This document shows, piece after piece, positions 9,064 through 10,669 of a DNA stretch of 64,000 nt (positions within the stretch are counted from its first letter, which is position 1; each line of letters starts with the position of its first letter). The translations under genes and the position numbers were made by a program. Origin of the DNA: a virus. Lineage: Duplodnaviria; Caudoviricetes. The stretch lies in the IMG/VR virus record IMGVR_UViG_3300024331_000207, positions 33,653 to 97,652 of that record; one strand, 5' to 3'. The notes under the pieces were generated by a model that was not told where the DNA came from, made no database searches, and was given only the letters and a program-made list of their open reading frames with translations.

Positions 9064-9118
9064 GCCATCTACAGGCGTCGCAGCCAGTGTAGCGCTGAGT
9101 GCACCAGGGGAATTAGGC

Positions 9119-9150
9119 GGGGGCCCGCCCCTATCCGTGGACGGGCCCCC
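9119..9150 (-). terminator. Hairpin immediately 3' of the tRNA-like CCA
   Basis: GGGGGCCCGTCC / GGCGGGCCCCC stem. Confidence 0.6.
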
Positions 9151-9221
9151 TGGTGTCAGCGGGAGTTGAACCCGCAACCTACGGCTTAACCGGCCGTCGC
9201 GCTGCCCAATTGCGCTATGAC
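9151..9221 (-). tRNA. tRNA-Asn(GTT)-like element with a 4-bp acceptor stem
   Basis: GTCA TA GCGC AATTGGGCA GCGC G ACGGC CGGTTAA GCCGT AGGTT GCGGG TTCAACT CCCGC TGAC ACCA: intact D, anticodon and T arms, short acceptor stem, G33. Confidence 0.7.
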
Positions 9222-9225
9222 GATT

Positions 9226-9452
9226 GGTTCCGCCTCTTCTGCATCGCCCGGCCGGCCCTGCGGGTCAGTCGCGGCAGCGGCGCTCTGCCTTTAAGCTAGC
9301 CCTCCGCGTGGAGGAGGGCCCCGGACTCGAACCGGGATCTCCTGTGCCTTGCCTGCGGCCCGGCGGGCGAAAAGCGGTGACCTGAAGTCTGCGAGCGACG
9401 AATCCGAACCTGTGGCTGAGTGCGGCTCTTCCGAGTCTGAGGTCTGTGCTCG
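9226..9452 (-). ncRNA. ncRNA with a circularly permuted tRNA-like domain (YrlA-like topology) and a 5' hexamer-repeat leader
   Basis: T arm 9336-9320, acceptor 3' strand GCCCTCC + TCCA, 3-nt linker, acceptor 5' strand GGAGGGC, TA, D arm 9296-9282; closed by a long stem (9361-9377 with 9230-9255); -10-like TAGTAT at 9464-9459. Confidence 0.8.
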
Positions 9453-9471
9453 TATCACATACTACACAGGC

Positions 9472-9508
9472 GAGCGGCCCCCCGCACCCAATAAACGGGG
9501 GGCCGCTC
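9472..9508 (-). terminator. Hairpin between the upstream gene and the ncRNA
   Basis: 13-bp perfect inverted repeat GAGCGGCCCCCCG / CGGGGGGCCGCTC. Confidence 0.6.
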
Positions 9509-9534
9509 TCATCCCGGGCACGTCTGCCCGAGGC

Positions 9535-10302
9535 TCAGGGGCGCAGCCACCAGTCGAACAGCGTCCGGCCCTCGCTGTAATCCTCCACCACCGCCGTGTT
9601 GGCCTCCTCGCGGGCGTACTTTACCGCCTCGCGCAGCTGCGCCAGCCGGTCCAGCAGCTGCCGCTTGCGCCGGGCGGTGACCGCGCCGGAGTACTTCACC
9701 GTGGTCCAGTAGCCGACCACCTCCTGGCGCTGCCGCACCTCCACCCTCGGCTCCACGAGCAGGCCCTCGATCACCTGGGCCTTGACCAGCTCGTGATTGA
9801 ACAGGACGGTGTCCTCGCTGGTCGTCTCGGTGCCCGGGGTGCGGTACTGGCCCTCCTCGGTGTCGGAGTCGCTCCAGCTCTCGGTCGCGTCGAGCACCGG
9901 CAGCCGCAGCGCGAAGGAGTACAGCTCCGCCAGCCGCCCCTCCAGGAAGATCAGGTGATCGGTCGGCACCTGCGTCAGCAGCGTCTCGCCGTCCACCGTC
10001 ACGTCGCCGCGGGCGCTCATCTTCGCCTCATCCAGCGTCCGGGTCACGTCCAGCTGACGGGTGAGCAGCTGGCGGACGTCCTCCAGCACGCCGGCCACGG
10101 TCACCTGTACGGGCTTGTGCTGCGCGGGCCGCTGCAGCGGGGCCGGCTGGCCGGGCCGCGGCTCGGCGCGGGGCTGGTAGGTCTTGCTGATGCCCGTGGT
10201 CAGCTCGGGCGAGGAGACGGCCTGGCCGAGCACGTCCATCCGGGCGTTAACGTCCGCCTTGACGCCGCCGACGACGGCAAGAATCTGGGAGATGCGAGTC
10301 AT
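9535..10302 (-). CDS. Conserved helical hypothetical protein (recalled as DUF7873-type; unverified), probably leaderless
   Basis: GISKTYQP, VPTDHLIFLE, LPVLD, VGYWTTVKYSGA and AVKYAREEAN motifs; TACATT -10 lies 6 nt before ATG 10302. Confidence 0.8.
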   Translation of the reverse strand: MTRISQILAVVGGVKADVNARMDVLGQAVSSPELTTGISKTYQPRAEPRPGQPAPLQRPAQHKPVQVTVAGVLEDVRQLLTRQLDVTRTLDEAKMSARGDVTVDGETLLTQVPTDHLIFLEGRLAELYSFALRLPVLDATESWSDSDTEEGQYRTPGTETTSEDTVLFNHELVKAQVIEGLLVEPRVEVRQRQEVVGYWTTVKYSGAVTARRKRQLLDRLAQLREAVKYAREEANTAVVEDYSEGRTLFDWWLRP

Positions 10303-10384
10303 TGTCACAATGTAGCGCCCATGTGTGGTGCAAGCGCAACCGGTTTTGCGTTATCCCGCGGGAGGGCGGGCTAGGCTCACAGCC

Positions 10385-10669
10385 ATGACTCAGATGCCGA
10401 GCGTGGGCCGCATCGTCCATTACGTCAGCTATAGCACGCCGGGCGGTGAGTACAAGAGCGAGTGCCGCGCAGCGATCATTACGGCTGTTGAGGCCGGCGG
10501 CGGCACGGTCATCCCTGAGACCGTCTCCCTCGCCGTCCTCAACCCGACAGGGATGTTCTTCAATGAAGGCGTCCGCTACGACAAGGGTCCGGACGAGGGC
10601 ATCGGCACCAATCTCTGCGGCGGCATCCTTTACCTGGGCGGCACCTGGCACTGGCCGGAGCGCGTGTGA
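10385..10669 (+). CDS. Conserved phage hypothetical protein
   Basis: PSVGRIVHYV...RAAIIT...GTWHWPER motif set. Confidence 0.75.
   Translation: MTQMPSVGRIVHYVSYSTPGGEYKSECRAAIITAVEAGGGTVIPETVSLAVLNPTGMFFNEGVRYDKGPDEGIGTNLCGGILYLGGTWHWPERV

What the first reader, a model, noticed from the sequence alone, without database searches (positions are those of the whole stretch)
9151..10302. Uncharacterised helical protein paired with a permuted-tRNA ncRNA: second candidate RNP system
Seen: after the 255-aa gene and a 13-bp hairpin, the minus strand reads T arm (CCCGG TTCGAGT CCGGG), GCCCTCC-TCCA, CGC, GGAGGGC, TA, D arm. This is a tRNA with its 3' half before its 5' half, a perfect 7-bp acceptor closed by a loop containing NCCA, no anticodon loop, and a long closing stem. 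Established: this topology is that of YrlA Y RNAs and resembles permuted tmRNA. However, no Ro60/Rsr, RtcB or SmpB gene is in the window and there is no G3-U70 pair. Inference: the adjacent protein is the partner of a Ro-independent tRNA-mimic RNP, possibly a decoy for anticodon nucleases or tRNA-sensing defences. From memory, similar RNA follows homologues of this gene, which needs checking.
Basis: partly seen in the sequence, partly recalled or inferred. Interest (0 to 1): 0.88.

Follow-up and report, generated by a model that had tools for sequence, protein, structure and literature searches.

The report
tRNA-mimic RNA paired with DUF7873
A phage gene of unknown function is followed by a folded RNA shaped like a transfer RNA turned inside out. 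This gene-RNA pair recurs in hundreds of bacteria and phages without Ro60, the protein that known RNAs of this shape work with, so it is probably an undescribed RNA-protein particle.

Summary
On the minus strand, a 255-aa DUF7873 gene (9535-10302) and a 13-bp hairpin are followed by a T arm, a perfect 7-bp acceptor helix closed by UCCACGC, and a D arm. There is no anticodon loop; a long covarying rod takes its place, and a genuine tRNA-Asn follows. A module of this kind lies just downstream of DUF7873, on the same strand, in 80/80 bacterial and about 70-74/77 phage homologue loci. In 151 sampled Actinomycetes genomes, the 5 with the protein are exactly the 5 with a strong RNA match. No Ro60, RtcB or SmpB gene is in the 97.6-kb phage record, and five of ten DUF7873 genomes gave no Ro60 match. 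One genome has both systems, and its Ro60-linked Y RNAs carry a different stem motif. The protein has a confident fold with no known relative and is predicted to form a symmetric homodimer. This window holds a reduced, one-headed form of an RNA that usually has two heads. Expression, protein-RNA binding, RNase P cleavage and function are all untested, and the decoy idea remains speculation. This scan has already flagged the same DUF7873/tRNA-mimic pair on other DNA (161 findings in at least 114 genomes).

The parts
10309..10314 (-). TACATT, a -10-like box 6 nt before the ATG. It suggests a leaderless DUF7873 mRNA.
   Evidence: Read. This is inference only: the sigma-70 consensus scan found no promoter.
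9535..10302 (-). DUF7873 gene, 255 aa (P0001)
   Evidence: Translation. Pfam PF25283, E 2.8e-59 over residues 1-251. AlphaFold2 mean pLDDT 90. Predicted homodimer, ipSAE 0.72 against a best control of 0.00.
9472..9508 (-). 13-bp GC-rich hairpin after the stop codon, with no U tract
   Evidence: Read. A hairpin in the same place, with a different sequence, is present in relatives L169-L172.
9459..9464 (-). TAGTAT, a TANNNT -10-like box between the hairpin and the RNA
   Evidence: A TANNNT box sits at the same place in L169, L170, L171, L172, L003, L007, L008 and L012. Promoter use is inferred.
9392..9452 (-). Leader domain. The stem CGAGC (9452-9448) / GCTCG (9396-9392) encloses about 50 nt of loose CAGNNN-like repeats. 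Two-headed relatives carry the first tRNA-like head at this place.
   Evidence: The stem covaries in relatives, for example GTGAGCG/CGCTCAC in L171 and L003, and AAGGAC/GTCCTT in L007. In two-headed RNAs the same GGAGCGC...TGCTCC stem encloses head 1. The lag-6 signal is weak in this window (0.32) and clearer over 121 loci (0.342 against 0.27 shuffled).
9230..9377 (-). tRNA-mimic domain. A rod (5' strand from CCGCTTTTC at 9377; 3' strand ending GAAGAGGCGG at 9230) carries the L-shaped head.
   Evidence: CM R1 hit at 9236-9377, 70.9 bits, E 9e-14. The rod helices were not used in selecting sequences; they are 84-89% paired and all 14 pairs show compensatory changes. Consensus fold of the window's clade.
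9320..9336 (-). T arm. G53 T54 T55 C56 A58 C61 are invariant across 60 modules.
   Evidence: invariant columns G50 T51 T52 C53 A55 C58 of alignment A2.
9299..9319 (-). 7-bp acceptor helix closed by the loop UCCACGC. Discriminator U is at 9312, CCA at 9311-9309 and G1 at 9305.
   Evidence: Over 219 distinct modules, C74 is present in 89%, an encoded CCA in 31% (48% in phages) and G1:C72 in 74%.
9282..9296 (-). D arm, with U8 (9298), A14 (9292), G18 G19 (9289-9288) and A21 (9286) conserved
   Evidence: invariant T84 and A90; nearly invariant G93, G94 and A96.
9151..9224 (-). Genuine tRNA-Asn(GUU), starting 5 nt after the rod ends. It is the only tRNA gene in the whole record.
   Evidence: ARAGORN. 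Rfam tRNA, 47.3 bits. Relatives carry a different tRNA at the same place: His, His, Arg, Lys, Ile, Arg, Leu.
9119..9150 (-). Terminal hairpin with a conserved loop (CACGGATAGGG-like). It is the likely end of the transcription unit.
   Evidence: Read. The same loop with covarying stems follows the tRNA in L169, L171 and L172.

Best explanation
Positions 9119-10314 on the minus strand form one module. It holds a probably leaderless gene for a 255-aa DUF7873 protein, then a non-coding RNA of about 225 nt (roughly 9455-9230), then tRNA-Asn and a terminal hairpin.

The RNA has two domains. The first is a leader stem enclosing loose six-base repeats; most relatives carry a first tRNA-like head here. 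The second is a covarying rod ending in an L-shaped tRNA-like head (variable region, T arm, 7-bp acceptor helix closed by UCCACGC, D arm) with no anticodon loop.

I think it works like a YrlA-type Y RNA with a different protein. The rod and leader would seat the RNA's own partner, a DUF7873 dimer in place of Ro60. The tRNA-shaped head would be presented to enzymes that recognise tRNA.

Inferred steps:
1. RNase P cuts at the 5' end of tRNA-Asn and so sets the RNA's 3' end.
2. RNase P probably also cuts before G9305. The 3' side is then trimmed or completed to the CCA ending at 9309. This gives a two-piece molecule held together by the rod, as reported for Mycobacterium smegmatis YrlA.
3. In the phage, the particle most likely occupies or redirects a host factor that acts on the elbow or acceptor end of tRNAs, in tRNA-directed defence, turnover or maturation.

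Shown here (by computation): the anatomy, the covariation, the two-way genetic linkage, the absence of Ro60 from the record, and the predicted protein dimer. Not shown: transcription, binding, cleavage and the physiological role.
For: Anatomy: sequence read. All nucleotides needed for the tRNA tertiary fold are conserved across 60 modules.

Structure: 30 consensus pairs are 92.8% paired, against about 43% when the partners are slid. The covariation score is 0.77 against 0.23 in shuffles (0/500 reach it). The two rod helices were not part of my selection.

Linkage:
- The strict pattern lies downstream of DUF7873 in 80/80 bacterial and 69/77 phage loci, with 0 on the opposite strand.
- CM R1 finds full-length modules in about 70 of 77 phage loci.
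- All 5 cultured-phage relatives examined, at 24-37% protein identity, carry a module: 4 by R1 and the Microcoleus phage by reading.
- In one sample of 151 Actinomycetes genomes, the 5 with the protein are exactly the 5 with an R1 hit above 120 bits, about 200 nt downstream. None of the other 146 has one.
- Bacterial neighbours are otherwise unrelated.

Independence from Ro60:
- No TROVE domain in the record.
- No TROVE match in 5 of 10 DUF7873 genomes.
- In genome G085, which has both systems, the Rsr-adjacent RNAs carry CGGUGCGAAG...GGAUACUUCG. Most DUF7873-linked RNAs instead carry GAUCGAMCGG...CCUUAAACG. The window's RNA contains no CGAA at all.

Acceptor end resembles a tRNA gene: 7 bp, C74 in 89%, CCA in 31%. 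M. smegmatis YrlA, which has a 7-bp stem, is cut by RNase P and receives CCA in vivo (PMC4201824).

Protein: confident fold (pLDDT 90). Predicted symmetric homodimer, ipSAE 0.72 against a best control of 0.00. That mark was reached by 20 of 30 proteins solved as pairs of one chain and 1 of 23 solved as single chains. The three runs agree in at least 95% of their contacts, and the partner's pLDDT is at least 87.
Against: - There is no transcript, binding or cleavage datum of any kind.
- DUF7873 is mildly acidic (median pI 5.8; the window's protein has pI 5.3 and net charge -6). That is unusual for a plain RNA binder.
- The window's clade lacks the internal-loop motifs conserved in most of the family. 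If those are the protein's seat, the seat is different or missing here.
- One distinct viral locus (L014/L015) has the gene but no RNA.
- Tight gene-RNA linkage would also follow if the RNA were a cis-acting part of the gene's transcript.
- The host is unknown and may encode Ro60.
- Folding energy of the single sequence is no better than shuffles.
Confidence: 0.55

Rival explanations
1. The RNA is a cis-acting part of the transcription unit and not a partner of the protein. A tRNA-shaped punctuation or stability element would recruit RNase P/Z to separate the DUF7873 mRNA from the downstream tRNA. Alternatively it would protect or regulate the mRNA 3' end. No stable particle would form.
For: The RNA is on the same strand, about 80 nt after the stop codon, and is followed directly by a tRNA. 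The hairpin after the gene has no U tract, so read-through is plausible (one search found no terminator-like site). In bacterial relatives there is hardly room for a promoter between the hairpin and the start of the RNA. The protein is acidic.
Against: The RNA is far more elaborate than a processing signal needs to be. It has one or two complete L-shaped heads, a covarying rod, conserved internal-loop motifs and a repeat track. In bacterial chromosomes no tRNA follows it. A conserved TANNNT box lies between the hairpin and the RNA in the window's clade.
Confidence: 0.2
2. DUF7873 is an enzyme and the RNA is its substrate or cofactor. After RNase P opening and CCA completion, the head would be a two-piece tRNA surrogate that is charged, modified or extended at its acceptor end and used by the protein dimer.
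For: The acceptor end resembles a tRNA gene: 7 bp, G1:C72 in 74%, C74 in 89%, CCA in 31%. The two head types have class-specific discriminator bases, A against U/G. [quoted passage not shown] The protein has invariant acidic and polar residues (D91, D100, E232, E233, N235; H170 nearly invariant) and is not basic.
Against: The protein has no recognisable catalytic fold or motif. I could name no identity set for any aminoacyl-tRNA synthetase: 3:70 is A:U and there is no anticodon. CCA is not encoded in most bacterial members.
Confidence: 0.1
3. It is an ordinary YrlA that serves the host's Ro60 (Rsr), and DUF7873 is merely a neighbour.
For: The topology is the same. Rfam's YrlA model aligns end to end at 25-43 bits. 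A genuine Rsr-adjacent actinobacterial Y RNA also scores only 43.3, so a sub-threshold score does not exclude membership. The host genome is unknown. About half of the DUF7873 genomes do have a TROVE gene somewhere.
Against: None of the loci I examined places the RNA beside rsr, and it is almost always beside DUF7873. Five of ten DUF7873 genomes, two of them complete chromosomes, gave no TROVE match. The Ro-binding motif is absent from the window and matches in only 4 of 60 family members. In G085 the two systems coexist at separate loci with different stem motifs. Rfam's YrlA model also scores tandem tRNA-Asn genes at 40.6 bits, so its hits here only reflect likeness to a permuted tRNA.
Confidence: 0.07
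4. It is an artefact: a tRNA pseudogene, an integration scar, or two adjacent tRNA genes read across their junction.
For: Tandem identical tRNA genes do imitate the pattern. They score about 52 bits with my model and 40.6 with Rfam's YrlA model. Chen et al. warned of this (PMC4201824).
Against: ARAGORN finds no tRNA in 9230-9377. No anticodon arm lies on either side. The rod covaries. The element is conserved with compensatory changes in about 150 loci across phages and bacteria.
Confidence: 0.01

Closest known systems
YrlA (Y RNA-like A; Rfam RF02553) with Ro60/Rsr, especially Mycobacterium smegmatis YrlA (Chen et al. 2014, PMC4201824; Wang et al. 2018, bioRxiv 10.1101/312249)
   Same: The arm order is the same: stem strand, variable region, T arm, loop-closed acceptor helix, D arm, stem strand. 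All tRNA tertiary-contact nucleotides are kept. A long stem replaces the anticodon loop. The RNAs often occur as two tandem units beside the partner gene. [quoted passage not shown] Both are also found in phages.
   Different: The linked gene is DUF7873 (about 245 aa, a helical bundle with long beta hairpins, a predicted homodimer) and not a TROVE ring protein. The Ro-binding motif GNCGAAN0-1G is absent. The family's own rod motifs differ from those of Rsr-linked RNAs in the same genome. The 7-bp acceptor helix, C74 and frequent CCA are the rule here and the exception among YrlAs. The RNA lies downstream of the gene and, in phages, inside tRNA gene clusters. Scores on Rfam's model are below the gathering score.
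Two-piece (circularly permuted) tmRNA with SmpB
   Same: The gene order is permuted: T arm, then acceptor 3' strand and CCA, then a linker, then the acceptor 5' strand. A long helix leaves the tRNA-like domain where the anticodon stem would be. A small dedicated protein partner is proposed.
   Different: There is no G3:U70 (A3:U70 here). ARAGORN and Rfam call no tmRNA. A full D arm is present. I saw no tag reading frame or pseudoknots. No SmpB gene is in the record, and DUF7873 is unrelated to SmpB.
Circularly permuted tRNA genes of the red alga Cyanidioschyzon merolae
   Same: The 3' half of the tRNA is encoded before the 5' half, and a linker joins the acceptor strands.
   Different: Those genes encode complete tRNAs with an anticodon loop and are matured through a circular intermediate. 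Here there is no anticodon loop, and the ends form a long conserved rod.
tRNA-like 3' elements processed by RNase P (MALAT1 mascRNA; plant-virus tRNA-like structures). Named from my own knowledge; the TYMV element is discussed in 10.1101/312249.
   Same: A tRNA-shaped unit is used as a processing or recognition handle by the host tRNA machinery. In this window the downstream genuine tRNA would set the 3' end of the mimic RNA in the same way.
   Different: Those elements are terminal parts of longer RNAs with free CCA-type ends and have no dedicated neighbouring protein gene.

Membership tests
YrlA / bacterial Y RNA | tRNA-like module: T arm, acceptor-like stem-loop and D arm in permuted order, with the tRNA tertiary-contact nucleotides | tested here: met
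   arm order as in the RF02553 consensus. U8, A14, G18 G19, A21, G53 T54 T55 C56, A58 and C61 are conserved.
YrlA / bacterial Y RNA | Ro60-binding helix with the conserved 5'-strand motif GNCGAAN0-1G (PMC4201824) | tested here: not met
   no match and no CGAA anywhere in 9225-9470 on the minus strand. The pattern matches only 4 of 60 family members. Rsr-linked RNAs in genome G085 carry GGUGCGAAG three times.
YrlA / bacterial Y RNA | Encoded beside an rsr (TROVE) gene and bound by Rsr | tested here: not met
   Adjacency: there is no TROVE in the 97.6-kb record. TROVE is absent from 5 of 10 DUF7873 genomes, and where present it lies on another contig or 68 kb away. Binding itself cannot be tested with these tools, and the host genome is unknown.
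YrlA / bacterial Y RNA | Score at or above Rfam's gathering score (69 bits) | tested here: inconclusive
   The window scores 25.2 bits and relatives 35.6-43.1. A true Rsr-adjacent actinobacterial Y RNA scores only 43.3, and tandem tRNA-Asn genes score 40.6. The threshold therefore does not discriminate here.
tmRNA (including permuted two-piece forms) | G3:U70 alanine identity pair, a tag reading frame, and an SmpB partner | tested here: not met
   Position 3:70 is A:U. ARAGORN and Rfam call no tmRNA. No SmpB gene is in the record.
tRNA gene (normal or permuted) | Anticodon stem-loop with a 7-nt loop | tested here: not met
   The strands flanking the head form a rod of about 30 bp with no loop. 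ARAGORN finds no tRNA in 9230-9377.
DUF7873 (Pfam PF25283) | Full-length match above Pfam's gathering score | tested here: met
   201.2 bits against a cut-off of 27, covering residues 1-251 of 255. The start MTRISQI aligns with homologues.
   9236-9377, 70.9 bits, E 9e-14, model positions 1-153. The window's sequence was one of the 60 used to build the model, so this match is partly by construction. Relatives of the window's clade that were not in the model show the same anatomy (L169, L171, L172).

The most novel reading that the evidence does not exclude
RNase P opens the head in vivo, giving a two-piece RNA with a free CCA end held together by its rod and a DUF7873 dimer. This anticodon-less tRNA surrogate would then be used at its acceptor end. 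It could be a sacrificial substrate for toxins or defence enzymes that attack tRNA 3' ends, or a charged carrier used by DUF7873 itself. That would make it a new class of tRNA-derived ribonucleoprotein shared by phages and bacteria.
Probability: 0.12. Interest if true: 0.9.

Novelty: new variant of a known kind. Interest (0 to 1): 0.76.

Why it matters
Bacterial tRNA-mimic Y RNAs are known only as partners of Ro60, and what their tRNA-like heads bind is still open. This is a sister family with the same head but a different, uncharacterised protein. It is present in at least 575 bacterial species' genomes, at least 115 viral contigs and 48 cultured-phage records, where it often sits inside phage tRNA gene clusters.

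If the pair forms a particle, it gives a second, independent route to the question of what tRNA mimicry is for. It would also assign a role to a widespread domain of unknown function. It may explain part of why phages carry tRNA regions.

The system can be tested directly in cultured hosts: Gordonia terrae phages, Arthrobacter and Rhodococcus phages, and Streptomyces. It also shows that the small 'hypothetical protein' genes annotated over this stretch in several phage records are probably not genes.

Tried and rejected
- Expression: a search for public RNA runs holding 9100-9560 listed no holder, so expression could not be examined and read laying was not used.
- Protein function: no hit in PHROGs, PADLOC or NCBIfam. 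There was no PDB sequence match. Foldseek against PDB and BFVD gave nothing at E <= 0.001. VIA-align's best Z was 8.4, to a designed helical binder, which is within the noise for helical bundles. The ESM Atlas returned only its own family.
- Thermodynamic support: z-scores were not significant in this 70% G+C sequence.
- Consensus scan: no E. coli-type promoter or U-tract terminator was found. That is expected for an actinophage and not informative.
- Literature: 'DUF7873' occurs in no held paper. It and the Sim et al. 2020 review (PMC10870794) are not held, so I could not check them.
- Second-tier CM hits (about 52 bits) in Streptomyces genomes looked like extra copies of the RNA but are tandem identical tRNA-Asn genes.
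- Partial TROVE matches (about 60 aa) in some DUF7873 genomes looked spurious. At least the one in G085 is a real 530-aa Rsr gene with its own Y RNAs.
- Six-base periodicity of the leader is weak in this window. I do not build on it.
Full report
**What is there.** The window is the right-hand 64 kb of a 97,652-bp IMG/VR virus record, about 70% G+C and estimated 84% complete. I read the finding's stretch on the minus strand.
- An ATG at 10302 opens a 255-codon frame that ends at 9535. Its product is a full-length member of Pfam DUF7873 (E 2.8e-59).
- A TACATT box lies 6 nt before the ATG, which suggests a leaderless mRNA. This is inference.
- After the stop come a 13-bp GC hairpin (9508-9472) and a TAGTAT box (9464-9459).
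- A stem, CGAGC (9452-9448) with GCTCG (9396-9392), then encloses about 50 nt of loose six-base repeats.
- The flagged element follows.

- T arm: 9336-9320.
- GCCCTCC: 9319-9313.
- UCCA, ending at 9309.
- CGC.
- GGAGGGC, starting at 9305.
- UA.
- D arm: 9296-9282.

The strands on either side pair into a long rod, from CCGCUUUUC at 9377 to GAAGAGGCGG ending at 9230. A genuine tRNA-Asn(GUU) starts 5 nt further on (9224-9151). It is the only tRNA in the whole record. A hairpin follows at 9150-9119.

**Is it more than chance?** Folding energy alone says nothing in this G+C-rich DNA (z -0.45 and +0.53). Comparison with relatives decides the matter.

DUF7873 has 470 relatives at E <= 0.001 in the protein collection, at least 115 viral stretches and at least 575 stretches in species genomes.

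I scanned the 800 nt downstream of each fetched homologue for a strict pattern. The pattern was a 5-bp T stem with the T-loop motif, followed directly by a 7-bp helix closed by a loop, then 2 nt, then a D arm.
- It is present in 80 of 80 bacterial loci and 69 of 77 phage loci.
- It never occurs on the opposite strand of the same stretches.
- Upstream it occurs 0 times in bacterial loci and 5 times in phage loci, which lie in tRNA arrays.

I then aligned 60 modules with their flanks. RNAalifold recovered the three arms and also two flank helices that I had not selected for.
- 29 of the 30 pairs show compensatory changes.
- 92.8% of cells are paired, against about 43% when the partners are slid.
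- The covariation score is 0.77 against 0.23 in shuffles, and 0 of 500 shuffles reach it.
- The rod helices alone are 84-89% paired.
- The nucleotides that build the tRNA elbow are invariant or nearly so: U8, A14, G18 G19, A21, G53, T54, T55, C56, A58, C61.

A covariance model built from this alignment scores the window's element at 70.9 bits (E 9e-14). That is its only hit in the record.

**Linkage to the protein runs both ways.**
- The model finds a full-length module downstream of the gene in about 70 of 77 phage loci.
- Five distant relatives from cultured phages all carry a module. They are Rhodococcus phage NiceHouse, Gordonia phage Ziko, Pseudanabaena phage PA-SR01, Vibrio phage D505 and a Microcoleus phage, at 24-37% protein identity. 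The Microcoleus case was found by reading and has an insert of about 85 nt in the acceptor loop.
- In one sample of 151 Actinomycetes genomes, five have DUF7873. Exactly those five have a hit above 120 bits, about 200 nt after the gene. None of the other 146 has one.
- In bacteria the gene is single-copy and sporadic (8 of 201 sampled genomes). Its neighbours are unrelated from genome to genome, and an ORF-free gap of about 400 nt follows it.
- The one clear exception is L014/L015, which are the same element. There a coding gene follows directly.

**Relation to Ro60 and YrlA.** The record has no TROVE, RtcB or SmpB gene. Five of ten DUF7873 genomes gave no TROVE match, two of them complete chromosomes. 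In the other five the match is on another contig or 68 kb away.

Genome G085 has both systems. A 530-aa Rsr gene is preceded by three Y-RNA-like units. Each carries CGGUGCGAAG...GGAUACUUCG (the third reads GCGCAG/CUUCC), which matches the published Ro-binding motif class (PMC4201824). The DUF7873-linked RNAs mostly carry GAUCGAMCGG and CCUUAAACG in an internal loop of the rod (37-38 of 60). The window's RNA has neither motif set and no CGAA at all.

Rfam's YrlA model aligns to these modules end to end but below threshold: 25.2 bits here and 35.6-43.1 in relatives, against a gathering score of 69. This test is uninformative. The true Rsr-adjacent RNA of G085 scores 43.3, and a pair of tandem tRNA-Asn genes scores 40.6. 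No other Rfam family covers the stretch.

I therefore read this as a sister family of YrlA. It has the same head, a different rod and a different linked gene.

**What is particular to this window.** Most members have two heads.
- The proximal head lies about 100 nt after the stop codon. Its discriminator is A, often read as ACCA, and its D arm reads GCCCAA..GGUAGAGGC.
- The distal head lies at about 200-300 nt. Its discriminator is U or G, and its D arm reads GYUCAA.GGCAGARC.
- In two-headed RNAs the stem GGAGCGC...UGCUCC encloses head 1, with six-base repeats on both sides.

The window and its closest relatives keep that stem and the repeats but have no head 1. These relatives are L169 (86% protein identity), L171, L172, L003, L004, L007, L008 and L012. 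They carry only the distal-type head.

In this clade a TANNNT box precedes the RNA. A genuine tRNA of varying identity follows it at once: Asn, His, His, Arg, Lys, Ile, Arg, Leu. RNase P cleavage of that tRNA would therefore define the RNA's 3' end. This is inference.

**The acceptor end.** Over 219 distinct modules the helix after the T arm is 7 bp, which was a selection criterion but was met in 149 of 157 loci.
- G1:C72 occurs in 74%.
- The base after the discriminator is C in 89%.
- A full CCA is encoded in 31% overall: 48% of phage modules and 14% of bacterial ones.

This is the pattern of real tRNA genes. Chen et al. showed that M. smegmatis YrlA is cut by RNase P and receives CCA in vivo. 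It was the only YrlA they tested that has a 7-bp stem (PMC4201824). Wang et al. argue that most YrlAs are poor RNase P substrates (10.1101/312249). In the DUF7873-linked family the RNase P-competent form is the rule. A two-piece RNA with a CCA end is therefore a reasonable but untested prediction for 9305 and 9309.

**The protein.** AlphaFold2 gives a confident model (pLDDT 90, pTM 0.78) of four long helices with long beta hairpins. I found no convincing relative by sequence or fold.

A two-copy prediction passes its controls. The ipSAE is 0.72 against a best control of 0.00. That mark was reached by 20 of 30 proteins solved as pairs of one chain and 1 of 23 solved as single chains. The runs agree in at least 95% of their contacts, and the partner's pLDDT is at least 87. 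The interface is symmetric, with about 230 contacts, and uses several invariant residues. This supports a homodimer but does not show one.

A dimer would fit an RNA that usually has two heads; that fit is my inference. The family is mildly acidic (median pI 5.8), which argues against a simple electrostatic RNA binder.

**Mechanism and rivals.** My best reading, at about 0.55, is a Ro-independent particle built like Rsr/YrlA. The rod and leader seat the DUF7873 dimer, and the tRNA-shaped head engages tRNA-recognising enzymes.

Its place inside phage tRNA clusters and its sporadic spread in bacteria point to a role in tRNA-centred conflict or tRNA turnover. Hughes et al. floated competitive inhibition of an anticodon nuclease for YrlA (PMC7790460). 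Because there is no anticodon loop here, any decoy action would have to work through the elbow or acceptor end.

The rivals are:
- a purely cis-acting processing or stability element (0.2);
- an enzyme-substrate or carrier relation (0.1);
- a normal YrlA serving host Rsr (0.07);
- an artefact (0.01).

**Earlier notes of this scan.** The same pair was flagged before on other DNA: 161 findings in at least 114 genomes. Those notes agree on the anatomy. A later internal check priced the 'protein binds RNA as a unit' reading at 22/100, for lack of any transcript or binding datum. I treated the notes as leads and re-derived the linkage myself, including the two-way test. The lack of wet evidence still stands.

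Noticed in passing
window 9119-9150 (-); also L169, L171 and L172 after their tRNA: The hairpin after tRNA-Asn has a conserved loop (CACGGATAGGG-like) while its stems covary between relatives. This is more conservation than a plain terminator needs. Other notes of this scan say the phage's pentamer arrays end in a shared hairpin.
   Followed up: partly
L176 (Gordonia phage Ziko) 2229-2697; L173 (Vibrio phage D505) 2284-2526: Small annotated 'hypothetical protein' CDSs (Ziko gp125 and gp126; D505 0060 and 0061) lie over the tRNA-mimic RNA found by model R1. They are probably mis-annotations.
   Followed up: partly
L179 (genome G085, contig 25) 2930-3440 (-): A real actinobacterial Rsr locus has three tandem Y-RNA-like units upstream of a 530-aa rsr gene, each with CGGUGCGAAG...GGAUACUUCG. 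ARAGORN mis-calls two of them as tRNA-Asp and tRNA-Pro(agg). Rfam's YrlA model scores the best unit at only 43.3 bits, below its gathering score.
   Followed up: partly
L178 166-317; L180 145-296: Tandem identical tRNA-Asn genes in Streptomyces imitate a permuted tRNA. They score about 52 bits with my model and 40.6 bits with Rfam's YrlA model. This is a trap for any search for this RNA class.
   Followed up: yes
L014 / L015 4720-5400: This is the one DUF7873 locus with no RNA downstream. A hairpin is followed directly by a membrane or histidine-kinase-like coding region. The two 'viral' contigs share this stretch.
   Followed up: partly
L024 2476-2873; L046 3389-3762: In two large viral contigs, phage-encoded tmRNA genes lie within 1.5 kb upstream of the DUF7873 gene, inside the same tRNA cluster.
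   Followed up: no
L086 8732-9180 (cyanobacterial MAG); L174 2330-2450 (Microcoleus phage): In the cyanobacterial relatives, the loop closing the acceptor helix is expanded by inserts of about 85-110 nt that contain hairpins of their own.
   Followed up: no
L177 (Rhodococcus phage NiceHouse) 2874-3726: A band-7-like membrane protein gene directly follows the DUF7873 / RNA / tRNA-Lys unit.
   Followed up: no
window 10325-10400: The DUF7873 gene is transcribed divergently from a plus-strand gene that starts near 10388. The spacer of about 85 bp would have to hold both promoters.
   Followed up: no
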